Virus record (IMG/VR): IMGVR_UViG_3300045988_057057
Coordinates: 1-38,104 of that record
DNA from: a virus
DNA: 38,104 nt
Reading direction: 5' to 3' (one strand)
Below are positions 1-38,104 of the stretch, piece by piece (position 1 is the stretch's first letter; every line of letters begins with the position of its first letter). A program made the position numbers and the translations under genes. The notes under the pieces are model-generated. The model made no database searches. It worked only from the letters and a program-made list of their open reading frames with translations, and was not told the origin of the DNA.

Positions 1-119
1 ATTATCTCTTTAGCAATATTTTTATTACCCTATATATATATATATATATATATATTACTGCTGTTGTTATGAAAAAGCAAGGCGAAACTCACATTTCTAT
101 GCATTATGACGAACTGAAT
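1..119. repeat. Left copy of the 119-bp exact direct terminal repeat
   Basis: Identical by eye to 37986-38104, including the (TA)12 tract. Confidence 0.95.
31..55. repeat. (TA)12 dinucleotide microsatellite, second copy at 38016-38040 within the terminal overlap
   Basis: tatatatatatatatatatatata followed by ttactg. It lies in the intergenic region between the CI-like gene and int, about 90 bp upstream of the int start. Confidence 0.95.
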
Positions 120-145: not shown

Positions 146-1309
146 ATGAAATGTAAAATTTGCAAGAGGGACATTCCCGACAACTCAATATTTTGCTGTT
201 GGTGCGGCGAAAAGCAGCTCCGAGAACGGAAGAAGAAGGACGAAATAAAAGTCCCCAAACCCCGGCAGCTCAAGTCCGGCAAGTGGAACATCGAGCTGAA
301 AGCCGAGGGATGGAGCACAACAGAGGACACGCCCGAAGAGTGCATCATTAAGGCCAAAGCGATCCGCGCCGGTTTCCTTGAGGCGAGGAAAAAGCCAGAG
401 GACATAACTGTTGCTGACGCGATCACCAAATATATCACCCAACACTCAAGCGAACTCAAAGCGCGGAGCAAAGAACAGTACGAATACATCCGCGACAAGC
501 GGTTTGAAAGCCTTATGCAGTTGCGCTTGAGCGCAGTTACGGAAGAAAAGCTGAACGAGGCAAAGCAAAAAGAGCTTGCGAAAAAATCCCGCAAGGGCGG
601 TACGCTGTCGCCCAAAACAGTAAACGACGCTCTGAACCTTGTAATTACTGTTGTGAACACATATTCTAACGGTGCGCCAAGGGTGACAGTTAAGAAAGCC
701 GAGGTACAGCGAAAATTCAAGACGATCTTGCCGCCGGAAGAAATATTTCCTGCGATAGTCGGAACAGATATAGAATTGCCGTGCCTGCTGGCTATGTGGC
801 TCTCTCTGTCCATTTCCGAAATACGCGGATTAACGAAGTCGAAGTCGGTAAGAAACGGTCAACTGTACATTGTCGAAACAGTTGTTGATGTAAAAGGCAA
901 GCCCGTAAGAAAAGAGGGCGCAAAGGAAGAGGAGCGCCCGCGCGTTCTGGATATTCCCCCGTACATACAAGGCTTGATTAACAAGGTTAGCGGGGATGTT
1001 ATAGAGCCGAGGACAAGCCGGGCAGTCAACGCGCGTTTTCATAAGTGCATGGAAAAGGCGGGACTCCCCCCAATGAACTTCCATTCTCTTCGGCACGTTA
1101 ACGCATCACTCATGGCAGACCTCAATATTCCTACCCCAGTAGCGCAGGAGCGCGGCGGTTGGAAAACAGACTACACCATGAAACAGACATATACACACGC
1201 ATTTACTGCCAGCCGAAAAGAGGCGGACAAGAGGGTCGACGAACGCTTCATGCAGCTTATAAGCAAGAAAATTACGAACGAAAATACGAACAAGAAAAAA
1301 GAACCCTGA
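146..1309 (+). CDS. int: Tyrosine recombinase / phage integrase with N-terminal zinc ribbon
   Basis: 387-aa ORF. N-terminus has CxxC...CxxC (MKCKICKRD..FCCWCGEK). C-terminus has tyrosine-recombinase-type motifs (FHSLRHVNASLM, ERGGWKTDYTMKQTYTH). An attP-like tRNA fragment lies directly downstream. Confidence 0.9.
   Translation: MKCKICKRDIPDNSIFCCWCGEKQLRERKKKDEIKVPKPRQLKSGKWNIELKAEGWSTTEDTPEECIIKAKAIRAGFLEARKKPEDITVADAITKYITQHSSELKARSKEQYEYIRDKRFESLMQLRLSAVTEEKLNEAKQKELAKKSRKGGTLSPKTVNDALNLVITVVNTYSNGAPRVTVKKAEVQRKFKTILPPEEIFPAIVGTDIELPCLLAMWLSLSISEIRGLTKSKSVRNGQLYIVETVVDVKGKPVRKEGAKEEERPRVLDIPPYIQGLINKVSGDVIEPRTSRAVNARFHKCMEKAGLPPMNFHSLRHVNASLMADLNIPTPVAQERGGWKTDYTMKQTYTHAFTASRKEADKRVDERFMQLISKKITNENTNKKKEP
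1273..1291 (+). promoter_or_regulatory. Two direct TACGAAC heptamers left of the attP core (candidate arm-type integrase sites)
   Basis: TACGAAC occurs at 1273-1279 and 1285-1291, in the same orientation as two further copies at 1504-1510 and 1516-1522. Confidence 0.35.
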
Positions 1310-6580: not shown

Positions 6581-6657
6581 GTCTCATTAGCTCAGTTGGC
6601 CAGAGCGCGCGGCTGTTAACCGCGAGGTCGAAGGTTCGAGCCCTTCATGTGACGCCA
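6581..6657 (+). tRNA. tRNA-Asn (anticodon GTT), CCA encoded
   Basis: Manual cloverleaf. Acceptor gtctcat/atgtgac has one T-T mismatch at 4:69. D-arm is gctc-agttggcca-gagc. Anticodon arm is cgcgg-ctGTTaa-ccgcg. Variable loop is aggtc. T-arm is gaagg-ttcgagc-ccttc. Discriminator is g, then cca. Total 77 nt. Confidence 0.85.
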
Positions 6658-6664
6658 CACTTAC

Positions 6665-6688
6665 GAAAATGGTGACATCACCATTTTC
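6665..6688 (+). other. Perfect 10-bp stem hairpin 8 nt after the tRNA
   Basis: gaaaatggtg-acat-caccattttc. No U-tract follows, so it may be a processing or attenuator structure rather than a canonical terminator. Confidence 0.4.
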
Positions 6689-19638: not shown

Positions 19639-22600
19639 ATGACAGAAACCGAATTTTTTCAAAAATATACCGGTGACGGCAGTTCCGGCAATTCAGCATC
19701 TTCGGGCGGCGCGCCTACGCGCCGCCGCACTTCCCCGCTTGAAGATTACTACAACGAGAAGAGGCAGAAGCAGGCCATTGAAAATGCAAACGAGATCATA
19801 AACAGCGATATCCTCCATGGCGGAACAAAGCCCGTGGGCTGGCAGCAGAAGACCGCGCAGCCTTCGGGGACGTCTGGCGCTTCCACCAGCAGCCGTGGAC
19901 GTGGCCTCGTCGGTGGGCTTAGGGATGCTTGGCTTGACAAGCACCCGAATGTCCCCACGATATCCGCAAAAGACCTGCCGAGTGCGAATCAGACTGTTTA
20001 CGATTTGCAGCAGCGCAAAAAGGAGCTTGAGGGCGAGAAAGCCAAGAACGCCAGATACAGCCTCGTCGATGGTGTTCTGACGAATAATAACACTGACTAC
20101 GACGCAGAGATTGCGGACATCGACAAACGTATAGCAGAAACCAAAACGCAGGACGATTACCGCACCGTGTGGGATAAGCTTGTCGATACCGTTACCGGAG
20201 CGGTCACAGGCTCCGCAGCTTCAAAGTCCGACGCTATGCGTACCCTTTACGAAAGCGGGCAGAACAGCCGCACGGCAGAGTATGAGCGAGAGATTGCGCA
20301 GCTTCAGAAGGACTATGACCGCGCAAAGCGCGACTATGAAGAGACGCTTGAACTTGAGGGCGAAGATGCAGCCCAGTGGGCGAAAAACACTCTTGATGAT
20401 GTTGAACGTAAACTAAACGCATACAAGAAAGTCGTTGATGAGAACGTCCAGCAGAAAGCCACTCAAGCCACCGCAGACTTGGCCGACCAGCTTCAGCAGG
20501 ATTCCGCCGAGAGAATCGAGAGATCCAAAGACGGCAGCGGCGCTGTCGGAAGATTCGCCGTTGACGCCGGTGTTGCCGCAACGCAGATGGGCATTGACGC
20601 TCTCACCGGTCGGGCACTCGGCATCGGGGATGTTGGCAGTAAGGCAAGCATGGCGCTCCGCGCGTTCGGCGGCGGCACTCAGGAGGCACGTCAGGGCGGC
20701 GGCGATCTGAAACAGCAGCTCGGATATGGCGGCGGCGTTGCGGCGGTTGAGCTCATAACAGAAAAGCTCTTTGACGGCCTCGCTGGCATATATGGCAAGG
20801 GCACTCTGGACAAAGTTGCCGAGGGGGTTATAGGCAACCTTGCCAAGACGGACGCAGGCCGTACTGCGCTGCGCGTTCTTGCGGGCGGGATCGGTGAAGG
20901 CTCGGAAGAGCTCATTTCAGATGCGCTTAATCCTCTCCTCCGGACTATTTACAACGGGAAAACCGTTGGTGAAAGTTACAGCGAGGAACAGATAGCCGAT
21001 TGGGGATATGATTTCCTCGTCGGAGCCGTCCTTGGCGCGGGTGGTAAGACTGTAGACATAGCAACCGGAGAAAACGCAAAGAAAAACGCCGAACTGCGCA
21101 GCGGAAGCGTCGACAGCGCTATTGAACTTATGACCGGCAAGAAAGCCGCGTCAGAGCCTCAGAGCGCGGCAGAGGCTCAAGGGGATATAACTACACCCCC
21201 CACGCCCTCAAACGACGCTGTGGCGCGTGCTGAGACGTTAAACTCTACTGTTAATAATAATGCAGAGACGCAGAATGCCGATGCGCAAAAAAATACCGTC
21301 CCGACAGGGACGGAAAACTCTAACGATATAGAAATATCCAAGGGGCCGTCTGCACTCGGCGCCAATGCGAAAGGTGCGGCAAATACACTTGCACGAAATA
21401 TAAGCATCATGGAAAACGACGCACCGGTGGCTTCTCTCTCAGGCAAGGAAATGCAGAGCAAAACTAAAAAAATCTCAGATCAGATCATGGACTTTTTTGC
21501 CCAACTTGGCGGCGCAGTCGATAGGCCGGGATTCGGTGATGTAGAACTCGGCAAATATGGCCAGTCTGCAATTTTGAACCACAGGCCGCTTAACCGTGCC
21601 AAGATGGTAAGTCTATCGGCAGTACCCGAAGTTATTGCGGAAGGGAAAATAATAAGCGATGTAGACAACTGGAAAGGCCGCGGCTACAGAAGTGTCATTT
21701 TTGCGGCTCCGGTTGAAATTGCAGGAGAGAGAACCTATGTTGCCGCTGTTGTGAATCAGTTTCCGGGAAGCAATAAGTTTTACCTGAACGAATGTGTAGA
21801 CACAGAGGGGAATTATCTAAGAATAAACGAAGTCCCTTCCGGCAACACAAAGATCGGGTTTACCGCCGCGGACGGGATTACCGAAGGGCCGAAAGGAACT
21901 CCGCCGACCTTGGACGGTGGAAGCCCGGAGCAAAGCTCCCTGTCTTCCGATGTCTCATCAGTCGAAGATATATCTTTCACTGATAGTATACCCACCGCAG
22001 AGCAAAATGTCAATAGCGGACAGGCTGAAAATTCTGGCAGCTCTGAGCAGAGAGCAAAAACCAATCTCGGCTCGAAGTCGACGCGGGCAAAGACAAGTCA
22101 GGCGGTCGAAACGCTTATGGAGGCTGATATCACGCCCGAAGCGCGGCAGGAGCAGCTTAACCCGTATATCAAGAACGGGCGCTTTGACTATATCCCCGAC
22201 ACGAATAAGGCACAAGTAAGCAGAGCCACCAAGAAAATTGCTAATGTCGGCTGGGAACAGGCGGTAAAGGATTTCCATGATAATGTGATATCGGGTAAGA
22301 GCAGCAAAGACCTTGTCGCAGAGGGCGCAATACTGCTCAACAACGCCGCGAACAGTGACGCAAGCGGGCGCGCCTACCTTGACCTTGCCAATGATTTTAT
22401 TGAGATGGCTCACCGCGCCGGTGAAACCCTGCAGGCGATAAAGGTCTTGCAGCAGCTCTCGCCGTCGGGGCGGCTTTACCTTATGACCAAGAACGTGAAG
22501 GCAATCAATGAAAGCCTCACCAAAGGCCAGCGCAAAGCAATTGCGAAAAAGCAGGAGGGCAGCAACTACAAAAACATTTCCGCTGAGGATATTTACAGCA

Positions 22601-25230
22601 ATTACGAGGTCAAGCTTGACAAAGACCTTGCCGCTGAGTATATGAATGCCAAGACCGACGAGCAGCGCGATGCGGTGTTATCCAAGATTCAGCAGAATAT
22701 AGCTGACCAGATACCGAGCACGTTCGGTGAAAAGTGGAACGCGATACGCTACGTAAATATGCTGGGCAACTTCAAGACTCAGATTCGCAACGTTGGCGGC
22801 AACACGCTTATGATGGCAACGCAGATGACAAAGAACCGCGTCAAAGCCGCAGCGGAAGCGATAGATAATCTTTTCCGGGCAGAGGACAAAAAAATAGAGC
22901 GCACGGCTGCTTTCCGCGTCGGGAAACAGCTCAGGGCAGAAGCGGCGGCAGACTTTGAGAGCATCAAAGACATAGCCCGCGGCGAGGGCAAATATAACGA
23001 CAATGCCAAGATGGCAAAGGAGATACAGGACAAGCGCCGTATATTCAACTCTAATCTGCTTGAAGCTTACCGCAAGGCCACTAACTGGGCAATGGACGCA
23101 GGAGACGTTATTTTCCTGAAAGCTAACTATGCCGACGCTCTCGGCGGCTGGCTGAAAGCGCACGGAATCAAGAGTATGGCAGATGCAACGCCTGAGCAGC
23201 TTGACCGGGGCAGAGCCTACGCCATAAAGGAAGCGCAGGAAGCGACGTTCAGGGACGATAATGTTGTCTCCAAAGCGGTGAACAAAATCGGCAGGAATCC
23301 TATCACGGAGGGCATAATCCCCTTTAGGAAAACTCCGGCAAACGTCGCGGTCAGAGCGGTCGAATACAGCCCGTTAGGCATTGCGGAAACTATATACAAG
23401 GGCATACAGACAAAGAGCGGGAACGCAAATGCAAACGACGTAATCAACAGCCTTTCCAAGAATGTAGTCGGTTCTACGTTGGCTTTTGCGGGATATGCAC
23501 TTGCAAAGGCAGGCTTTGCGCGCGGCAGCGAGGATGACGATGAGCTGGACTCGTTCCAGAAAATGCAGGGCAAGCAGGATTATGCCGTCAAAATCGGCGA
23601 TAAGTGGATATCGTTGTCTCAGCTCGCCCCGAACTCCGTGCCGCTGTATATGGGCGTTATGCTGTATGAGGCTCTGGACGGCGGCGGTCTGACATGGGAA
23701 AGCGCATACAAAATACTCGGCTGTCTAAATGACCCTCTGATGGACATGTCCATGCTGAGCGGTGTAAACGATGCACTGTCCGACGTGATTACATACGGCG
23801 ATGACGGCACAATGGTGTGGAAAGTGCTCGGTAACGCAATGATGAGCTATCTCACGCAGGGCATAAACAACTCCCTTGTAGGTCAGGCTGAACAGGCGTG
23901 GGAAGAGAACCGCCAGACTGTATACTCCGACAAGGACAGCGTTTTGCCGAGTAATGTGCAGTATAAGCTTGGTAAAGCGATGGGCAAGATTCCCGGAGTG
24001 GATTACCATCAGCAGGACTATGTTGACGCTTGGGGAAGAACGCAGTCCAACGGATCAGCTGGCAAAAGGATATTCGATGCGTTTATCAATCCCTTTTACA
24101 GCGGCACTGACACGACGACAAAGGTTGATACAGAGCTGGAGCGCCTTTACAAGGCTGGAAAAAATGTTGACGGATTCCCCAATGTTCTGCCGCAGAAGGC
24201 AGCGCGGTCGACGGAGTACGTCAAGGGCACGTCCATGACCCCGGACGAGTACAAGCAGTACAGCATAGACAGGGGGCAAAAGTCACTTGAGCTTGTGAGT
24301 GACTTTATGGAGAGCGACGAATATAAGATCATGTCGGATATCCAGCGCGCCGGAGTCATAAGCGATTTGTATTCCCTCGCTGCCGACCGGGCGTTGAAAA
24401 GCGTCAAGACCTCTAACGGCATAGCGTACACCGGGAAGCTTGATGATGTGGCAAAGCTCAAAGATGTCCCAGAGTTTTACGCTTCAAAGGAAATCCTTTC
24501 CGGAGCAAAGGACAACACCAAAGAGAATTTCGACGCCATTGACCAAGTCCTCAAAAACTTCGGCCATCTCAAGGATGACACTCAGACAGCCCTAAAGGCT
24601 TCCGAGCTGAATGTCAATCCGCTACTGTACGCTCAAACCATGGGCATAAAGTCAAAGAGCTGGTACGACACCAAGGCGGCAGTTGACAAGGCAAAGGGCA
24701 CCCTCGGCGGCACCGATAATGCGATAGCTATTGCAGTTTATAACAGCATGAAGGGCAAGTCTGATGCTGAAATCCTTGATGCAATCCGCGCACAGGTGAC
24801 ACCTAAAGCCGGTGGTCAGCAGAGTGCCGTTGTGCGCCGTGCCGAAGCGTACACGACAGTCGCTAAGGGCAATGCTGACCTCGGCTCATGGCTCAACCTC
24901 GTTGCTGCACTTCACAACGCCGACGAGAATAGCAAGCCGAATAAGGACGAAGTGTATGCTGCTTGGCGCAGCCTTGGCTTGAGGGACAATCAGACATACG
25001 CCGGAATAACCCGCGACGATTTTTACAACATCGTGAAAAGTTCCGGGAGCTACGCAACAAAGGATGATTATGCCACTCAGATCGACAAGGATTACGCCAA
25101 AATCGACCCTGCCGTTGAAAAGGAAAAAACCACTTTCCCCACCACTCCGGTAACGGAAGAAACCGGCAATTCCAAGTCAGGCAAGACCTCGATGGAGGAT
25201 TACTACCGTGCGCTTGGCCTTATAAAGTAA
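19639..25230 (+). CDS. Giant multidomain virion-associated protein (1863 aa)
   Basis: Single uninterrupted ORF of 5.6 kb at the end of the late operon. It has coiled-coil, Gly-rich and low-complexity linkers between globular segments. Confidence 0.85.
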   Translation: MTETEFFQKYTGDGSSGNSASSGGAPTRRRTSPLEDYYNEKRQKQAIENANEIINSDILHGGTKPVGWQQKTAQPSGTSGASTSSRGRGLVGGLRDAWLDKHPNVPTISAKDLPSANQTVYDLQQRKKELEGEKAKNARYSLVDGVLTNNNTDYDAEIADIDKRIAETKTQDDYRTVWDKLVDTVTGAVTGSAASKSDAMRTLYESGQNSRTAEYEREIAQLQKDYDRAKRDYEETLELEGEDAAQWAKNTLDDVERKLNAYKKVVDENVQQKATQATADLADQLQQDSAERIERSKDGSGAVGRFAVDAGVAATQMGIDALTGRALGIGDVGSKASMALRAFGGGTQEARQGGGDLKQQLGYGGGVAAVELITEKLFDGLAGIYGKGTLDKVAEGVIGNLAKTDAGRTALRVLAGGIGEGSEELISDALNPLLRTIYNGKTVGESYSEEQIADWGYDFLVGAVLGAGGKTVDIATGENAKKNAELRSGSVDSAIELMTGKKAASEPQSAAEAQGDITTPPTPSNDAVARAETLNSTVNNNAETQNADAQKNTVPTGTENSNDIEISKGPSALGANAKGAANTLARNISIMENDAPVASLSGKEMQSKTKKISDQIMDFFAQLGGAVDRPGFGDVELGKYGQSAILNHRPLNRAKMVSLSAVPEVIAEGKIISDVDNWKGRGYRSVIFAAPVEIAGERTYVAAVVNQFPGSNKFYLNECVDTEGNYLRINEVPSGNTKIGFTAADGITEGPKGTPPTLDGGSPEQSSLSSDVSSVEDISFTDSIPTAEQNVNSGQAENSGSSEQRAKTNLGSKSTRAKTSQAVETLMEADITPEARQEQLNPYIKNGRFDYIPDTNKAQVSRATKKIANVGWEQAVKDFHDNVISGKSSKDLVAEGAILLNNAANSDASGRAYLDLANDFIEMAHRAGETLQAIKVLQQLSPSGRLYLMTKNVKAINESLTKGQRKAIAKKQEGSNYKNISAEDIYSNYEVKLDKDLAAEYMNAKTDEQRDAVLSKIQQNIADQIPSTFGEKWNAIRYVNMLGNFKTQIRNVGGNTLMMATQMTKNRVKAAAEAIDNLFRAEDKKIERTAAFRVGKQLRAEAAADFESIKDIARGEGKYNDNAKMAKEIQDKRRIFNSNLLEAYRKATNWAMDAGDVIFLKANYADALGGWLKAHGIKSMADATPEQLDRGRAYAIKEAQEATFRDDNVVSKAVNKIGRNPITEGIIPFRKTPANVAVRAVEYSPLGIAETIYKGIQTKSGNANANDVINSLSKNVVGSTLAFAGYALAKAGFARGSEDDDELDSFQKMQGKQDYAVKIGDKWISLSQLAPNSVPLYMGVMLYEALDGGGLTWESAYKILGCLNDPLMDMSMLSGVNDALSDVITYGDDGTMVWKVLGNAMMSYLTQGINNSLVGQAEQAWEENRQTVYSDKDSVLPSNVQYKLGKAMGKIPGVDYHQQDYVDAWGRTQSNGSAGKRIFDAFINPFYSGTDTTTKVDTELERLYKAGKNVDGFPNVLPQKAARSTEYVKGTSMTPDEYKQYSIDRGQKSLELVSDFMESDEYKIMSDIQRAGVISDLYSLAADRALKSVKTSNGIAYTGKLDDVAKLKDVPEFYASKEILSGAKDNTKENFDAIDQVLKNFGHLKDDTQTALKASELNVNPLLYAQTMGIKSKSWYDTKAAVDKAKGTLGGTDNAIAIAVYNSMKGKSDAEILDAIRAQVTPKAGGQQSAVVRRAEAYTTVAKGNADLGSWLNLVAALHNADENSKPNKDEVYAAWRSLGLRDNQTYAGITRDDFYNIVKSSGSYATKDDYATQIDKDYAKIDPAVEKEKTTFPTTPVTEETGNSKSGKTSMEDYYRALGLIK

Positions 25231-35224: not shown

Positions 35225-35391
35225 TCAACCTGAATGTGGTCTGTTTCTTTCCGGCACTTGTAGCAGTACATTGTCTTTACATGGCCGGGGTTCGTCTGAC
35301 CGCGCCATTTTGTAGCGGGTGAACGGCAACCACAGGCGGAGCATTCAAAGATGCGCTTCTGCGGTATGACCGACGCCGGATGTCTACGCAT
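35221..35391 (-). CDS. Small zinc-ribbon protein (56 aa; internal start)
   Basis: CSACGC...CYKCRK. It overlaps the end of the Cro-like gene by 8 nt. Confidence 0.5.
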   Translation of the reverse strand: MRRHPASVIPQKRIFECSACGCRSPATKWRGQTNPGHVKTMYCYKCRKETDHIQVE

Positions 35392-35623
35392 GGGGGTCAA
35401 GCAGATCGTCGACTTTGCATCCGTAGAGTTCTGCAAGTCTGACGACGGTCTCAAGCCGGGGCAGCCACTTGCCCTTTTCCCAACCGCAAACCGTTGTATG
35501 CGAGATACCGAACGTAGCGGCTACTTCTTCTTGAGAATACCCGGCGGCTTTACGTTTTGCCTTGAACGCAGCCGCTTGCCGGGTGGAAACGGCTGATCCT
35601 GTCTTAGCGGTTCTGTTGCTCAT
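35384..35623 (-). CDS. XRE-family HTH regulator (Cro-like, first gene of the early operon)
   Basis: GYSQEEVAATFGISHTTVCGWEKGKWLPRLETVVRLAELYGCKVDDLL. GAAAGGAGG SD. It faces the switch region. Confidence 0.8.
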   Translation of the reverse strand: MSNRTAKTGSAVSTRQAAAFKAKRKAAGYSQEEVAATFGISHTTVCGWEKGKWLPRLETVVRLAELYGCKVDDLLDPHA

Positions 35624-35656
35624 GCTCCTCCTTTCTCGTAATTGTGAGATTTATTA

Positions 35657-35685
35657 TTGACACATGAGCCGGGATGTGATAATTT
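35657..35685 (+). promoter_or_regulatory. Strong sigma-70-type promoter reading rightward, away from the Cro-like gene
   Basis: TTGACA at 35657-35662, a 17-nt spacer, then the extended -10 TGaTAATTT (35677-35685). Confidence 0.55.
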
Positions 35686-35755: not shown

Positions 35756-35790
35756 TCAGCGGGGGAAGTCTATCCGCTGACCTATGCAAA

Positions 35791-35919
35791 CACTGCCGGG
35801 AGACATCGCGGTTACGCCTTAATGAGATAAACGGCTATTCTTATTAAGGAGGTAACGGGATGATTTCTGTTCAGTTGAACCGGACGGAGCGGCGCAAGCC
35901 GTTCTGTCTCCCGGCGGTG
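35791..35919 (+). ncRNA. Candidate structured RNA element (multi-helix junction) enclosing an SD and a mini-ORF start
   Basis: A 15-bp helix joins cactgccgggagaca (35791-35805) to tgtctcccggcggtg (35905-35919), with one G-U. An inner 10-bp hairpin (35817-35826 / 35840-35849) covers part of AAGGAGG. An inner 7-bp stem with a GCAA tetraloop lies at 35887-35904. Confidence 0.4.
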
Positions 35920-35937
35920 CTTGTTTCAGACCAATAA
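35860..35937 (+). CDS. Mini-ORF (25 aa) with a strong ribosome-binding site
   Basis: AAGGAGG (35846-35852) sits 7 nt before the ATG. Translation is MISVQLNRTERRKPFCLPAVLVSDQ. Whether it is translated is unknown. Confidence 0.3.
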   Translation: MISVQLNRTERRKPFCLPAVLVSDQ

Positions 35938-36302
35938 AGAGCGCACATCCTTAATTGCTATCCCATGTGCATTGCACATTGTAGAAAGGGGGTGCAGCCA
36001 TTCGCTATGAGTGAAGTTTTCATAACTGCGCTTATTAGTGGCGGCTTTCCACTCTCCGTACCTGAGGCCGGAGACACACATCCGGCTGTTTGATGCGTGG
36101 ATACGCGGAATCACAACCGCGAGTGAGAACGCAAGGACAAGAAGCGCTGGGAATTAGCGCGCTGGTCATGGGACACCAACATGGCCTTGCTGCATCCGCA
36201 TCAGGTAAAATGTGGGGGAGCAAGGGCGGAAATCCCTCCGCCCAAACTCTCTACCGGTCTGCTGACGATTAGATTATATCTCACAAATATGTGTATTTCA
36301 AG

Positions 36303-36332
36303 TTCTAAATCGTGATTTCTCGCGATTTAGAA
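36303..36332. promoter_or_regulatory. Perfect 10-bp inverted repeat upstream of the nuclease gene
   Basis: ttctaaatcg (36303-36312) and cgatttagaa (36323-36332), with a 10-bp spacer, about 55 bp before the start codon. Confidence 0.45.
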
Positions 36333-36386
36333 GAATAAACAAAAGCACAGGTCTAAAACTGTGCAAATTTATAGGAGGAAACTGAT

Positions 36387-37472
36387 GTGGATACCGCCAT
36401 AATTATTTTTTTCGTCTCGATTCCCATACTAACAATTATCTCTGCAATACATGGCTGGGTGGAGGGCAAAAGTAAAGCTAAGAAAGTGGAAGAGGCTATA
36501 TCTCAGTCGGTGAATAATATCCAAAATGCAATCTTAAACGTAAAAAACTCCGAATCCCAGGCGCAACCCTGGCTCGCAAATTATATTTCAGAATTTCAAT
36601 ATGCCGCAGATATGGAAACAGCTAAAATCTTGGGAACAAAAAAGCACCCTGCGTACAAAGCGGCTGATGAAGTAAGAAGAATAGCATTGGAAAAACGAGA
36701 GTTGAATAAAAAATGCAAGATGTACGAATATCAACTCGGATTCTTGGAGACAATGTTTTCTTGGCTACCCACATTTGAAGAAATGCCCCCAGCAATAGCG
36801 GCTCTCAGCACGTATGACGGAGATGACGAGTACGACAAGGTAAGGACTCTTCTTTCCCCTGAAGAATATGCTAAGCTTTCAAGCGCACAAAAAAGCGACT
36901 TGGCTTTAAAAAGATGGAAATCGCGAAAGCGCACCGAGTGGGAGGCCGGGCGCGACTACGAGCGTTACATCGGATACAAGTTTGAATGTAATGGGTATGA
37001 TGTTGAATATGTTGGGGCACTTAACGGGAAAGAGGACAGAGGGATAGACCTAATTGCCAAGAAGGGTAACCACATAGAAATAATACAATGCAAAAGATAT
37101 TCAGCGGTGAAAAATAAATTTGTTCATGAGAATACCGTTGCGCAGCTTTTCGGAGTAACCGCAGTATATAATATGGAAAATCCTAATGAGCACGCGCAAG
37201 CCACTATATATACTTCTTCCGAACTCTCGATTGAAGCAAAGAGATTTGCCAACTATCTGCATATTGATGTAGTAGAAAATGAAAAACTGAAAGATTACCC
37301 GATTATAAAATGCAATAACAGCAAAGGCGGCGAAAAAATATATCACTTACCTTTTGACCAACAGTACGACAAAATAAAAATCAACAAAAAAGGAACAGCA
37401 ATGTATGTAGCAACTGCCGCAGAAGCGGAAAAGCTTGGTTACAGACGGGCTTATAAATGGAAAGGAAATTGA
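36387..37472 (+). CDS. Membrane-anchored Mrr-type (PD-(D/E)xK) restriction-endonuclease-domain protein (361 aa, GTG start)
   Basis: AGGAGG sits 7 nt before the GTG. N-terminal TM helix AIIIFFVSIPILTIISAIHGWV, then a long helical region. Nuclease core is YERYIGYKFECNGYDVEYVG...DRGIDLIAKKGNHIEIIQCKRY. C-terminal segment is GEKIYHLPFDQQYDKIKI...EAEKLGYRRA. GC is much lower than in the rest of the genome. Confidence 0.8.
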   Translation: MDTAIIIFFVSIPILTIISAIHGWVEGKSKAKKVEEAISQSVNNIQNAILNVKNSESQAQPWLANYISEFQYAADMETAKILGTKKHPAYKAADEVRRIALEKRELNKKCKMYEYQLGFLETMFSWLPTFEEMPPAIAALSTYDGDDEYDKVRTLLSPEEYAKLSSAQKSDLALKRWKSRKRTEWEAGRDYERYIGYKFECNGYDVEYVGALNGKEDRGIDLIAKKGNHIEIIQCKRYSAVKNKFVHENTVAQLFGVTAVYNMENPNEHAQATIYTSSELSIEAKRFANYLHIDVVENEKLKDYPIIKCNNSKGGEKIYHLPFDQQYDKIKINKKGTAMYVATAAEAEKLGYRRAYKWKGN

Positions 37473-37819
37473 TGAACACAACACTTGAAAGAATAGTATC
37501 TCTTATGCCGCACGACAAGAACGGCAATATAGAGCATGGAGCACGCAAGGTTTTCGCAGAAAGTATAGGATTGAGAAGCGGAAATCTTATTTCAGACTGG
37601 ATGAATGGTCGGTCAAGTTCCTACAAGAACTACGTGTATGAAATTGCGCTAAAATACGATGTCTCCGTAGATTGGCTGCTTGGCAACAGCGACGAAAAAA
37701 AGAAGCCCACCACCGAAAACGGTGATGGGCTGGATGCAAAGCGGCGCAGGGCGCTAAATCTTATTGAGGCAATGAACGACGAACAGTTGGACGCGCTATT
37801 GAAACTGCTTGGACGTTAA
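37472..37819 (+). CDS. CI-repressor-type HTH protein (115 aa from the ATG at 37472; alternative start at 37457)
   Basis: AAAGGAA SD sits 5 nt before the ATG, which overlaps the nuclease stop (TGATG). FAESIGLRSGNLISDWMNGRSSSYKNYVYEIALKYDVSVDWLLGN resembles the phage CI repressor N-terminal HTH. No peptidase S24 domain. Confidence 0.7.
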   Translation: MNTTLERIVSLMPHDKNGNIEHGARKVFAESIGLRSGNLISDWMNGRSSSYKNYVYEIALKYDVSVDWLLGNSDEKKKPTTENGDGLDAKRRRALNLIEAMNDEQLDALLKLLGR

Positions 37820-37985
37820 GTACACGCTGTGCATAGTCGATGATTAAATCGAGTTCTGCGTCTGACGCTTGGAACACGAGCATTGTTGCACGCTGTCTGA
37901 GCTGCGAAGTCGGAGGGGGCTTATCATGCCCGCCGAGCCTTGGGGTACATATCATTTCAAACGACCTTTCCGCGTGATGCGCCGC

Positions 37986-38104
37986 ATTATCTCTTTAGCA
38001 ATATTTTTATTACCCTATATATATATATATATATATATATTACTGCTGTTGTTATGAAAAAGCAAGGCGAAACTCACATTTCTATGCATTATGACGAACT
38101 GAAT
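37986..38104. repeat. Right copy of the 119-bp exact direct terminal repeat
   Basis: Identical by eye to 1-119. Confidence 0.95.

What the first reader, a model, noticed from the sequence alone, without database searches (positions are those of the whole stretch)
36250..37985. AT-rich island: membrane-anchored Mrr-type nuclease coupled to a CI-like HTH gene (candidate lysogeny-expressed defence module)
From about 36250 to the end of the unit genome, GC drops to roughly 25-42 percent on sampled lines, against about 60-65 percent in the structural genes. That indicates foreign origin. The island carries two genes whose stop and start overlap (TGATG). The first encodes an N-terminal TM helix, about 165 residues of helical or coiled-coil sequence, and a PD-(D/E)xK Mrr-type nuclease core (DRGIDLIAKKGNHIEIIQCKRY). 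It ends in a small C-terminal domain (GEKIYHLPFDQQYDKI...EAEKLGYRRA). The second is a CI-type HTH protein without a cleavable S24 domain. The pair sits between the switch region and int, is transcribed away from the lytic genes, and is preceded by a perfect 10-bp inverted repeat (36303-36332). This mirrors lambda, where rexAB exclusion genes are co-transcribed with cI. A nuclease tethered to the membrane is well placed to attack incoming DNA. I cannot tell whether the HTH protein is the phage repressor itself, the regulator or immunity partner of the nuclease, or both.
Basis: partly seen in the sequence, partly recalled or inferred. Interest (0 to 1): 0.7.

Follow-up and report, generated by a model that had tools for sequence, protein, structure and literature searches.

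The report
Prophage membrane-tethered Mrr nuclease beside repressor
A temperate gut phage carries, in the same operon as its repressor, a DNA-cutting enzyme anchored to the cell membrane; it belongs to a large, unstudied, horizontally moving family that most likely destroys incoming foreign DNA, though nobody has tested this.

Summary
Window 36262-37700 is the most AT-rich stretch of a 37,985-bp circular phage genome (40% GC against 52%). It holds two overlapping genes (TGATG).

Gene 1 (36387-37472) encodes an N-terminal membrane helix, a conserved helical domain, an Mrr-type PD-(D/E)xK nuclease with invariant catalytic residues, and a C-terminal 'sunset'-like domain. Gene 2 (37472-37819) is a CI-type helix-turn-helix protein without a protease domain.

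The two are not a dedicated pair. Relatives of gene 2 sit at the same prophage slot beside unrelated cargo. The 36303-36332 inverted repeat follows gene 2's family, not the nuclease, so gene 2 is probably the prophage repressor and the repeat its operator.

The nuclease belongs to a large family: about 790 clusters at 50% identity, 520 species genomes and 148 viral contigs. In Clostridia it usually lies between a CI-like gene and the integrase. The gene averages 9 GC points below its flanks. A membrane anchor is nearly always present, sometimes on a separate adjacent gene.

The best reading is a lysogeny-expressed, single-protein exclusion nuclease, analogous to but not homologous with SNIPE. 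Defence is untested.

Also found: a FuFi-1-like structured RNA directly upstream, inside the lysis-lysogeny switch.

The parts
36387..37472 (+). ORF A, 361 aa: a membrane-tethered Mrr-type endonuclease. It is cargo ('moron') of the lysogeny operon.
   Evidence: ORF and ribosome-binding site. Pfam Mrr_cat. Full-length homologs at 40-99% identity.
36393..36449 (+). Residues 3-21: predicted single transmembrane helix. [quoted passage not shown]
   Evidence: Kyte-Doolittle mean 2.56. 114 of 120 close homologs and 120 of 143 distant representatives have one or more such N-terminal segments. K+R count is 3.3 after the last helix and 0.9 before the first. Genomes whose nuclease ORF lacks a TM helix encode a small TM protein directly upstream.
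36558..36926 (+). Residues 58-180: conserved helical domain (Q..PWLA...KKHPA.KAA.E...EKR...EYQL.F.E..FPWL; LSPEEY). No known family.
   Evidence: Conserved columns. Helices 61-83 and 88-123 in the model. No Pfam match, DUF4041 included.
36948..37292 (+). Residues 188-302: PD-(D/E)xK nuclease core of Mrr type. Invariant residues are E192, D217, D221, Q234, C235, K236, R237 and E248.
   Evidence: Pfam. Invariant columns in 38 sequences. Foldseek matches EndoMS/NucS, Cdn1, MspJI, AF1548 and Hjc.
37305..37451 (+). Residues 307-355: C-terminal 'sunset'-like domain (KCN..GEKIYHLPFDQQYD...EAE..GYRRA). It is the most conserved part of the protein and lacks the usual cysteines.
   Evidence: NCBIfam NF051437 at E 7e-4, 19.6 bits, below the cut-off of 27. 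35 of 38 relatives match, best E 7.7e-7. Invariant columns.
37472..37819 (+). ORF B, 115 aa: CI-type HTH repressor without an S24 domain (HTH at about residues 21-77, then a two-helix C-terminal tail). Probably the prophage repressor.
   Evidence: PHROG repressor families at E 1.8e-9. The family profile hits 434 CI and TP901-1 CI. Relatives carry Pfam HTH_3. Model pLDDT 84.5, with fold matches to 434, P22 c2 and TP901-1 CI. Position in relatives.
36303..36332 (.). Inverted repeat TTCTAAATCGTGA-N4-TCGCGATTTAGAA: the probable operator of ORF B.
   Evidence: The half-site AAATCGTGA recurs upstream of the lysogeny operon wherever an ORF B relative is present, whatever the cargo (L172-174, L176, L175). 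It is replaced in L001, whose nuclease is 79% identical but whose HTH is only 26% identical. It is the only such pair in the window.
36273..36301 (-). Promoter-like site TTGAAA-17-TATAAT (11 of 12 matches) pointing towards the early genes. It abuts the operator.
   Evidence: I found the same arrangement in the printed upstream sequences of L001 and L172.
36345..36364 (.). Hairpin GCACAG-N8-CTGTGC just upstream of the nuclease ribosome-binding site. It is kept, with changed stem and loop bases, in L172 and L006.
   Evidence: Its role is unknown; a 5' mRNA stem or a minus-strand terminator are both possible.
36088..36251 (+). FuFi-1-like structured RNA. Its 3' hairpin (36224-36243) has no U tract.
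   Evidence: Rfam RF02986, full-length match, 39.5 bits, E 3.7e-7, below the gathering score of 59.6. Conserved in L001, L012 and L172-174. Compensatory pairs.
36007..36093 (+). Conserved 28-codon ORF with a ribosome-binding site (MSEVFITALISGGFPLSVPEAGDTHPAV). Its stop codon overlaps the 5' end of the RNA.
   Evidence: Whether it is coding or conserved at RNA level is unresolved.
35657..35684 (+). Promoter-like TTGACA-N15-GATAAT next to the cro-like gene. A conserved TTGTGAGAT (35642-35650) precedes it.
   Evidence: Read from the sequence. Conserved in L001. Homologous to the promoter upstream of genuine FuFi-1 RNAs.
35384..35623 (-). Cro-like HTH_3 gene, the first gene of the leftward early operon.
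   Evidence: Pfam HTH_3 at E 2.3e-13.
146..1309 (+). Tyrosine integrase. On the circular genome it lies directly downstream of ORF B.
   Evidence: Pfam Phage_integrase. Circularity.

Best explanation
The island is a cargo gene inserted into the lysogeny operon of a temperate siphovirus, probably of gut Oscillospiraceae/Clostridia.

Operon and regulation. The operon reads nuclease, then repressor (ORF B), then integrase. ORF B is the prophage's CI-type repressor. It most likely binds the 36303-36332 inverted repeat, which lies between a leftward early promoter and the start of its own operon. The nuclease would therefore be made whenever the repressor is made, that is, in lysogens, as lambda rexAB is made with cI.

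The nuclease. It acts as a single protein. One N-terminal helix holds it in the membrane. A helical stalk, the Mrr-type catalytic core and a small sunset-type (probably DNA-binding) domain face the cytoplasm.

Most likely function. It cuts DNA that enters through the membrane, such as superinfecting phage DNA. The tether keeps it away from the chromosome and the resident prophage. This is the logic shown experimentally for SNIPE, which uses unrelated domains.

Shown here: the gene structure, domains, conserved catalytic residues, conservation of the anchor, position in prophages, independence of the nuclease from the HTH gene, low-GC mobile character, and the operator tracking ORF B.

Inferred: expression in lysogens, topology, nuclease activity, operator binding, and the defence function and its mechanism.
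For: Domains and catalytic residues.

The anchor is conserved and appears to be selected for:
- 95% of close homologs and 84% of distant homologs have an N-terminal TM segment.
- In 12 genomes whose nuclease ORF lacks a TM segment, a 99-132-aa TM/coiled-coil protein is encoded directly upstream in at least 11.
- Lysine and arginine are enriched after the last helix.

Position in prophages:
- In 80 IMG/VR loci, 64 have an HTH gene within 1.5 kb.
- 35 have an integrase within 6 kb, always downstream and on the same strand as the nuclease in all but one. 29 loci end less than 3 kb downstream.
- In Clostridia genomes a CI-like gene ends 3-58 nt before the nuclease gene, with int 12-2300 nt after it.

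Cargo character:
- The gene averages 9 GC points below its flanks, and is lower than them in 96-97% of 151 loci.
- The prophage slot holds other cargo in sister phages.
- The family is patchy: 520 of 185,579 species genomes, across many phyla. It also occurs on Hymenobacter plasmids.
- Known defence genes (AbiE, SoFic, BREX, PbeA) occur among the four nearest neighbours of the 36 non-Firmicute loci surveyed.

ORF B as repressor and the repeat as its operator.

Precedents:
- SNIPE is a TM + DUF4041 + GIY-YIG protein. It cleaves injected DNA, spares induced prophages and is toxic without its TM helix (PMC13190303).
- Epona is a TM + Mrr_cat protein with anti-phage activity (bioRxiv 10.1101/2024.07.02.601686).
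Against: - No experimental or expression data exist for any member of the family.
- The window protein hits no PADLOC model. Relatives give only weak, nuclease-domain-level hits: type IV REase, ZorD, PDC-S02 and PDC-S28.
- No relative is found in 50,697 deposited phage genomes.
- Some homologs sit among housekeeping genes with no mobile or defence neighbours (L002/L003; most loci).
- Topology rests on hydropathy and charge counts only.
- No convincing sigma-70 promoter for the plus strand was found next to the operator, so the transcription unit is inferred.
- The low GC could partly reflect the K/E/N/I-rich helical sequence rather than foreign origin.
Confidence: 0.5

Rival explanations
1. 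It is an ordinary type IV (modification-dependent) restriction enzyme of the Mrr kind. The sunset or helical domain would read modified bases, and it would cut modified phage DNA anywhere in the cell. The membrane helix would be secondary.
For: Mrr_cat core with the D...QxK arrangement. 17 of 38 relatives weakly match PADLOC mREase_IV. There is no methyltransferase partner. RefSeq calls homologs 'restriction endonuclease'.
Against: There is no Mrr_N or other known modification-reading domain. The membrane anchor is kept throughout the family, even as a separate gene. That is hard to explain if location did not matter.
Confidence: 0.15
2. It is an abortive-infection effector. The nuclease is held inactive at the membrane and is released or activated when an infecting phage disturbs the envelope, and it then degrades all DNA in the cell.
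For: Epona combines Mrr_cat with a holin-like 2-TM domain. SNIPE without its TM helix is toxic through DNA cleavage. Some neighbours are Abi-type systems.
Against: No holin or sensor domain was detected. A prophage-borne Abi nuclease would also be triggered by the prophage's own lysis genes. Nothing in the sequence indicates a release mechanism.
Confidence: 0.12
3. It is not a defence gene. It would be a membrane-associated DNA-processing enzyme serving some other purpose, for example degrading DNA taken up or transferred, or a cellular role at the membrane, merely carried by phages.
For: Homologs occur in conserved housekeeping neighbourhoods (L002/L003, next to Ham1, DprA and TopA) and with heterogeneous neighbours in many phyla. 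The conserved core is 38-50% identical across phyla, which suggests a generic target.
Against: The family is found in only 0.28% of species genomes. The gene is consistently lower in GC than its flanks. There is no conserved synteny outside prophages. The gene is strongly tied to the repressor-integrase slot in Clostridia.
Confidence: 0.15
4. The HTH protein is a dedicated controller or antitoxin of the nuclease, as in C-protein-controlled restriction or a toxin-antitoxin pair.
For: The stop and start codons overlap. The inverted repeat lies upstream of the operon. C-proteins appear among the fold matches of ORF B.
Against: ORF B relatives pair with unrelated cargo or with none. Nuclease relatives pair with unrelated CI proteins, some with S24 domains, or stand alone. 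In L175 an ORF B relative lies divergent from a cro-like gene, the classical repressor position.
Confidence: 0.05

Closest known systems
SNIPE (membrane-bound nuclease that cleaves phage DNA during injection; Nature 2026, PMC13190303)
   Same: Both are single proteins with the same layout: an N-terminal TM anchor (N-terminus outside, the rest cytoplasmic), an elongated helical middle part and a C-terminal nuclease. In both families the N-terminal region is highly variable in length and content while the core is conserved. The mechanism would suit a prophage, because SNIPE spares induced prophages.
   Different: There is no sequence or fold relationship. The nuclease here is PD-(D/E)xK of Mrr type, not GIY-YIG. 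There is no DUF4041, and there is an extra sunset-type C-terminal domain. Cleavage of injected DNA and any contact with tape-measure or host membrane proteins are untested.
Epona (Vibrio cholerae integron cassette, Mrr_cat fused to a 2-TM holin-like domain; bioRxiv 10.1101/2024.07.02.601686)
   Same: Both combine transmembrane segment(s) with an Mrr_cat nuclease in one protein, and both are mobile cargo. Epona has reported anti-phage activity.
   Different: Epona is described with a holin-like 2-TM domain. The window protein has one TM helix, a conserved 120-residue helical domain and a sunset domain. I could not obtain the Epona sequence, so homology beyond Mrr_cat is untested.
E. coli Mrr and other type IV restriction enzymes (Pfam PF04471)
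   Same: Same catalytic-domain family and active-site arrangement. Both stand alone without a methyltransferase.
   Different: There is no Mrr_N winged-helix domain. The window protein is membrane-anchored and has a different C-terminal domain.
Lambda rexAB, and sie/ltp-type prophage exclusion genes co-expressed with the repressor
   Same: The gene lies next to the repressor, on the same strand and in the lysogeny module. The slot holds different cargo in sister phages.
   Different: There is no homology, and a nuclease is a different effector type. Co-transcription is inferred, not measured.
TP901-1 CI / 434 CI (for ORF B)
   Same: Cro/CI-type HTH domain. As in TP901-1 CI, there is no S24 autocleavage domain. 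It sits at the lysogeny side of the switch.
   Different: The HTH domain is divergent: the window protein falls below Pfam HTH_3 detection. The protein is short (115 aa) and lies 1.85 kb from the cro-like gene. The induction mechanism is unknown.

Membership tests
Mrr_cat / PD-(D/E)xK nucleases (Pfam PF04471) | Profile match above the curated cut-off | tested here: met
   41.5 bits against a cut-off of 21, E 1.6e-10, residues 188-302. 38 of 38 relatives match.
Mrr_cat / PD-(D/E)xK nucleases (Pfam PF04471) | Catalytic residues (helix Glu, Asp, Q/E-x-K) conserved | tested here: met
   E192, D217, D221, Q234, K236 and E248 are invariant in 38 sequences at 41-81% identity. The D...QxK form is the Mrr variant (my own knowledge: Bujnicki and Rychlewski 2001).
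Mrr_cat / PD-(D/E)xK nucleases (Pfam PF04471) | Restriction-endonuclease-like alpha/beta fold | tested here: met
   Foldseek matches EndoMS, Cdn1, MspJI, AF1548 and Hjc at E 6e-5 to 1e-3.
Type IV restriction enzyme Mrr | N-terminal Mrr_N (winged-helix) or another modification-reading domain | tested here: not met
   No such Pfam match in the window protein or in 38 relatives.
Type IV restriction enzyme Mrr | Cleavage that depends on DNA modification | not testable with these tools
   Needs biochemistry.
SNIPE | N-terminal TM anchor with a cytoplasmic catalytic part | tested here: met
   Based on hydropathy and the positive-inside rule only. Supported by the split-gene variants.
SNIPE | DUF4041 domain | tested here: not met
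   No Pfam hit at E<=0.05 in any of 38 members.
SNIPE | GIY-YIG nuclease domain | tested here: not met
   The nuclease is Mrr_cat.
SNIPE | Cleaves phage DNA during injection | not testable with these tools
   Needs an infection assay.
Epona | Mrr_cat fused to a holin-like 2-TM domain | tested here: inconclusive
   Mrr_cat is present. The window protein has one TM helix, 46 of 120 relatives have two, and no holin Pfam match was found.
Sunset domain (NCBIfam NF051437) | Profile match above the curated cut-off | tested here: inconclusive
   The window protein scores 19.6 bits against a cut-off of 27, E 7e-4, covering the full model. 35 of 38 relatives match at E<=0.01, best 7.7e-7. By my reading of the alignment, only one invariant Cys and one His remain.
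Known defence systems (PADLOC-DB v2) | Match to any system model | tested here: not met
   No match for either window protein at E<=1. Relatives give weak nuclease-domain hits only.
CI-type phage repressor (ORF B) | Cro/CI HTH domain | tested here: met
   There is no Pfam hit for the window protein itself. The family profile hits 434 CI (E 0.002) and TP901-1 CI. Relatives at 59-67% identity carry PF01381. PHROG repressor families match, as does the fold.
CI-type phage repressor (ORF B) | Sits at the lysogeny side of the switch, next to int, whatever the neighbouring cargo | tested here: met
CI-type phage repressor (ORF B) | LexA-like S24 autocleavage domain | tested here: not met
   Absent. 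The protein is 115 aa with a two-helix tail. This resembles TP901-1-type repressors.
CI-type phage repressor (ORF B) | Binds operators at the switch and maintains lysogeny | not testable with these tools
   Only indirect evidence: the repeat's half-site tracks the family.
Toxin-antitoxin or C-protein-controlled nuclease pair | Conserved pairing of the two genes | tested here: not met
FuFi-1 RNA (Rfam RF02986) | Covariance-model score above the gathering threshold | tested here: inconclusive
   39.5 bits against 59.6, but the match is full-length with E 3.7e-7. It has the same genomic setting as nine genuine FuFi-1 RNAs scoring 118-139 bits.

The most novel reading that the evidence does not exclude
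This family would be a second, independently evolved class of entry-site nucleases. Here a membrane anchor and a variable stalk carry an Mrr-type PD-(D/E)xK core and a sunset DNA-binding domain that cut foreign DNA as it crosses the membrane. That is convergent with SNIPE, spread across many bacterial phyla, and in gut Clostridia carried mainly by prophages as a gene co-expressed with the repressor.
Probability: 0.3. Interest if true: 0.7.

Novelty: new variant of a known kind. Interest (0 to 1): 0.55.

Why it matters
If the function is confirmed, defence by location (a nuclease kept at the DNA entry site) would not be peculiar to SNIPE. It would be a recurrent solution built from different nuclease folds. 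It would also add a large family (about 790 clusters at 50% identity) to the defence catalogue, and it would help explain superinfection immunity among temperate phages of poorly cultured gut Clostridia.

The split-gene variants, with anchor and nuclease on separate adjacent genes, offer a natural test of whether anchoring is required.

Separately, placing the orphan FuFi-1 RNA inside the lysis-lysogeny switch gives a concrete, testable setting for an RNA whose function has been unknown since 2017.

Tried and rejected
Searches that found nothing:
- PADLOC on both window proteins gave no hits.
- Deposited phage genomes gave no DNA or protein match.
- A PDB sequence search with the nuclease gave nothing meaningful.
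- DUF4041 or SNIPE homology was not found in 38 members.
- Literature searches for 'sunset domain', for membrane-anchored nucleases with phage, and for Mrr with transmembrane and prophage terms found no study of this family. One hit led to Epona.

Ideas rejected:
- A dedicated HTH-nuclease pair (toxin-antitoxin or C-protein control) was rejected from the contexts.
- Extra copies of the operator half-site or of TTGTGAGAT elsewhere in the genome: counts do not exceed chance apart from the sites reported.

Limits and failed calls:
- My simple integrase and HTH profiles were built from Firmicute phages and may miss distant recombinases in other phyla. I checked this with a Pfam scan of neighbours.
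- The FuFi-1 DNA pattern search in viral contigs was mostly non-specific, and a sequence-only profile found none of the hits. Rfam confirmed 9 of the 14 that I tested.
- The supplement of the FuFi-1 paper is not held.
- One Rfam call exceeded the size limit.
- RNAalifold on six sequences from only two lineages gives limited covariation evidence.
Full report
**1. What is in the sequence**

The window is a circular assembly. Bases 1-119 are repeated at 37986-38104, so the unit genome is 37,985 bp. A 96%-identical IMG/VR contig (L012) runs across the junction. The genome has a large terminase, a portal, an exonuclease, a tRNA-Asn and a tyrosine integrase, which makes it a temperate tailed phage.

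Genome GC is 52.1%. The nuclease gene is 40.6% and ORF B 45.7%. The lowest 1086-nt windows of the genome start at 36276-36326.

ORF A (36387-37472, GTG start after AGGAGG) and ORF B (ATG at 37472, to 37819) overlap as TGATG. Homologs fix both starts. On the circle the integrase gene (146-1309) follows ORF B on the same strand.

**2. The nuclease protein**

- Residues 188-302 match Pfam Mrr_cat at 41.5 bits against a cut-off of 21.
- In an alignment of 38 homologs (41-81% identity) E192, D217, D221, Q234, C235, K236, R237 and E248 are invariant. This is the Mrr form of the PD-(D/E)xK site (my own knowledge of the family).
- An AlphaFold2 model (pLDDT 80.9) shows a long helix at 2-53, a helical domain at 61-180, the nuclease core and a small beta-rich C-terminal domain.
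- Foldseek finds EndoMS/NucS, Cdn1, MspJI, AF1548 and Hjc. It also finds gut-virus 'restriction endonucleases' of similar overall shape.
- The C-terminal domain (307-355) is the most conserved part of the protein. It matches the NCBIfam 'sunset' model weakly in the window protein and in 35 of 38 relatives.
- The helical domain at 58-180 is well conserved but matches no known family, DUF4041 included.

**3. The membrane anchor is a selected feature**

Residues 3-21 are strongly hydrophobic. Among homologs, 114 of 120 close ones and 120 of 143 distant representatives have one to three such N-terminal segments and none elsewhere. Lysine and arginine are enriched after the last segment, which predicts that the conserved part faces the cytoplasm.

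The region between the anchor and the conserved core varies from about 30 to over 300 residues. It consists of coiled coil, often with a SWIM zinc finger and sometimes with Sel1 or KTSC domains.

In 12 genomes from Bacteroidota, Ignavibacteriota, Chloroflexota and others the nuclease ORF has no hydrophobic segment. In at least 11 of these a 99-132-residue ORF directly upstream encodes a TM helix plus coiled coil, sometimes with a Top1-type zinc ribbon. Nuclease ORFs that carry their own anchor have no such neighbour. I take this fusion/fission pattern as the strongest evidence that membrane location matters.

**4. Where the family lives**

The family is large:
- more than 2,000 clusters at 90% identity with E<=1e-3;
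- 790 representatives at 50% identity with E<=1e-30;
- 148 IMG/VR contigs;
- 520 of 185,579 species genomes, across many phyla;
- four Hymenobacter plasmids.

None is in the deposited-phage collection.

In Clostridia and Oscillospiraceae the gene sits in prophage lysogeny modules. The usual order is cro-like (minus strand), CI-like HTH (plus), nuclease (plus), then integrase (plus). The CI gene often ends 3-58 nt before the nuclease gene. Some of these CI proteins carry S24 domains.

In 80 viral loci, 64 have an HTH gene within 1.5 kb. 35 have an integrase within 6 kb, always downstream and on the same strand as the nuclease in all but one, and 29 loci end within 3 kb downstream. The window's order, nuclease before HTH, is the rarer arrangement, but it recurs (L092, L093, L098, L099, L110 and L140).

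Outside the Firmicutes the gene stands alone with heterogeneous neighbours. There is no conserved partner apart from the split anchor. The neighbours are a mix of housekeeping genes with some AbiE, SoFic, BREX, PbeA and transposase genes. One Clostridial lineage (L002/L003) has the gene in a conserved housekeeping neighbourhood.

In 151 loci the gene averages 9 GC points below its flanks and is lower than them in 96-97% of cases. The family therefore behaves as horizontally moving accessory cargo, not as a housekeeping gene.

**5. ORF B and the inverted repeat**

ORF B gets no Pfam hit itself. It does match PHROG repressor families. Its family profile hits 434 CI and TP901-1 CI, relatives at 59-67% identity carry Pfam HTH_3, and its model has the Cro/CI fold plus a two-helix tail.

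Relatives of ORF B occupy the same slot, just upstream of int, in sister prophages with different neighbours:
- a 281-aa multi-TM protein (L172-174);
- a different Mrr_cat + NA-iREase1 protein (L176/L177);
- a 187-aa protein, with the HTH gene divergent from a cro-like gene (L175).

L001 makes the converse point. Its nuclease is 79% identical to the window's, but its HTH protein is only 26% identical.

The repeat at 36303-36332 has the half-site AAATCGTGA. The same half-site, as an inverted pair, lies upstream of the lysogeny operon in L172-174 and L176, and in degenerate form in L175. L001 has an unrelated small repeat at that place.

The repeat therefore follows ORF B's family, not the nuclease, and is most likely its operator. 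It abuts a near-consensus minus-strand promoter (TTGAAA-17-TATAAT, 36301-36273). I found that promoter conserved in the printed upstream sequences of L001 and L172.

I conclude that ORF B is the prophage repressor. It controls the nuclease only by sharing its operon. The idea of a dedicated pair is rejected.

**6. Mechanism**

The anatomy is an anchor, a variable stalk, a conserved helical domain, a nuclease and a small probable DNA-binding domain, all in one protein, expressed with the repressor from a prophage. That matches the logic shown for SNIPE. SNIPE is a TM + DUF4041 + GIY-YIG protein that cuts phage DNA during injection, spares induced prophages and becomes toxic without its TM helix (PMC13190303). 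Epona, a TM + Mrr_cat cassette with anti-phage activity, is a second precedent.

There is no homology to SNIPE's domains, and the window protein matches no PADLOC model. This is therefore 'works like', not 'is a member of'.

Alternatives remain open: type IV restriction, an abortive-infection effector, or a non-defence role. Nothing here measures expression, topology or activity.

**7. Seen on the way: the FuFi-1-like RNA**

Directly upstream of the island, 36088-36251 (plus strand) matches the orphan FuFi-1 RNA. The match is full-length, E 3.7e-7, but below the gathering score. The element is conserved in all five sister phages whatever their cargo, with compensatory changes between two lineages. 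A conserved 28-codon ORF precedes it.

Nine genuine FuFi-1 RNAs in gut phage contigs (118-139 bits) lie in the same setting. Each sits between a divergent cro-like gene and a CI-like gene, after a strong promoter and a short ORF, and an inverted repeat flanks the unit in most of them. FuFi-1 was described in 2017 with no known function (PMC5737381).

The window copy lacks the U tract after its 3' hairpin. Read-through into the nuclease operon is therefore possible.

**8. Verdict**

The nuclease family is uncharacterised and is a new variant of a known kind: membrane-bound, prophage-borne nuclease cargo. Interest is moderate to good, and experiments should decide the function.

Noticed in passing
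window 36088-36251 (+); conserved block 35975-36218: A FuFi-1-like structured RNA (Rfam RF02986, 39.5 bits, E 3.7e-7, below the gathering score) lies directly upstream of the nuclease gene. It is conserved in sister phages L001, L012 and L172-174 whatever their cargo, with compensatory base-pair changes. Its 3' hairpin (36224-36243) has no U tract.
   Followed up: partly
L179, L186, L187, L201, L207, L220, L221, L222, L249 (IMG/VR contigs): Nine genuine FuFi-1 RNAs (118-139 bits) lie inside lysis-lysogeny switches. The layout is: cro-like HTH gene (minus strand) 246-316 nt upstream where sequence is available; then a TTGACT-17-TATACT promoter; a ribosome-binding site with a short ORF (MT.LL.LP.P...); FuFi-1; a terminator; a second promoter; and a CI-like HTH gene (plus strand) 55-963 nt downstream. 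An 18-nt inverted repeat flanks the unit (in L222, CATTGACTGCGGCGGGGA / TCCCCGCCGCAGTCAATG). This gives an orphan RNA a concrete biological setting.
   Followed up: partly
window 36007-36093 (+): A conserved 28-codon ORF with a ribosome-binding site (MSEVFITALISGGFPLSVPEAGDTHPAV). Differences from L001 fall mostly at third codon positions. In the L012/L172 lineage the first 14 codons are kept and the tail is frameshifted (43 aa). Its stop codon overlaps the 5' end of the FuFi-1-like RNA. It could be a leader peptide, a small membrane peptide, or conserved at RNA level.
   Followed up: partly
window 35639-35653 and 36275-36289: 15-nt inverted repeats (core TTGTGAGAT / ATCTCACAA) bracket the 650-bp segment that holds the small ORF and the RNA. 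Both are conserved in L001, L012 and L172-174, and each overlaps a promoter-like site. They could be shared regulator sites or the ends of an invertible segment.
   Followed up: partly
L136, L142, L156, L158, L159, L168, L143, L141, L124, L117, L139 (genome loci): Split versions of the nuclease family. The nuclease ORF lacks a membrane helix, and a 99-132-aa ORF directly upstream encodes a TM helix plus coiled coil. In L124, L117 and L139 that ORF also has a Top1-type zinc ribbon.
   Followed up: yes
L172-L174 4172-5017; L176 5502-6428; L175 5367-5930: The slot beside the ORF B-type repressor holds other cargo in sister prophages: a 281-aa multi-pass membrane protein, a 308-aa Mrr_cat + NA-iREase1 protein, and a 187-aa protein with a C-terminal hydrophobic tail. 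All three are unstudied candidates for exclusion functions.
   Followed up: partly
window 1-119 and 37986-38104; 38016-38040: A 119-nt terminal direct repeat shows that the window is a circularised assembly. A (TA)12-13 microsatellite lies in the 410-nt spacer between ORF B and int.
   Followed up: yes
window 6581-6657 and 6667-6686: A tRNA-Asn(GTT) gene lies just before the terminase gene. It is followed at once by the inverted repeat AAATGGTGA-NN-TCACCATTT.
   Followed up: no
window 35861-35938 (+), flanked by 35787-35805 / 35905-35923: A 25-codon ORF with a strong ribosome-binding site (MISVQLNRTERRKPFCLPAVLVSDQ). A 19-nt inverted repeat (89% complementary) has its left arm upstream of the ORF and its right arm inside the ORF's 3' end. 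The L001 alignment is largely gapped across this stretch.
   Followed up: no
window 19639-25230 (+): A 1863-aa ORF in the tail region has no PHROG match at E<=1e-5. It is presumably a tape-measure or tail protein of an undescribed type.
   Followed up: no
alignment A4/A5 (ORF B family: P0128, P0130, P0138): Some relatives combine a different, canonical HTH_3 N-terminal domain with an almost identical C-terminal tail (…VDWLLGNSDEKKKPTTENGDGLDAKRRRALNLIEAMNDEQLDALLKLLGR). This is domain shuffling between repressors that would change immunity specificity.
   Followed up: no
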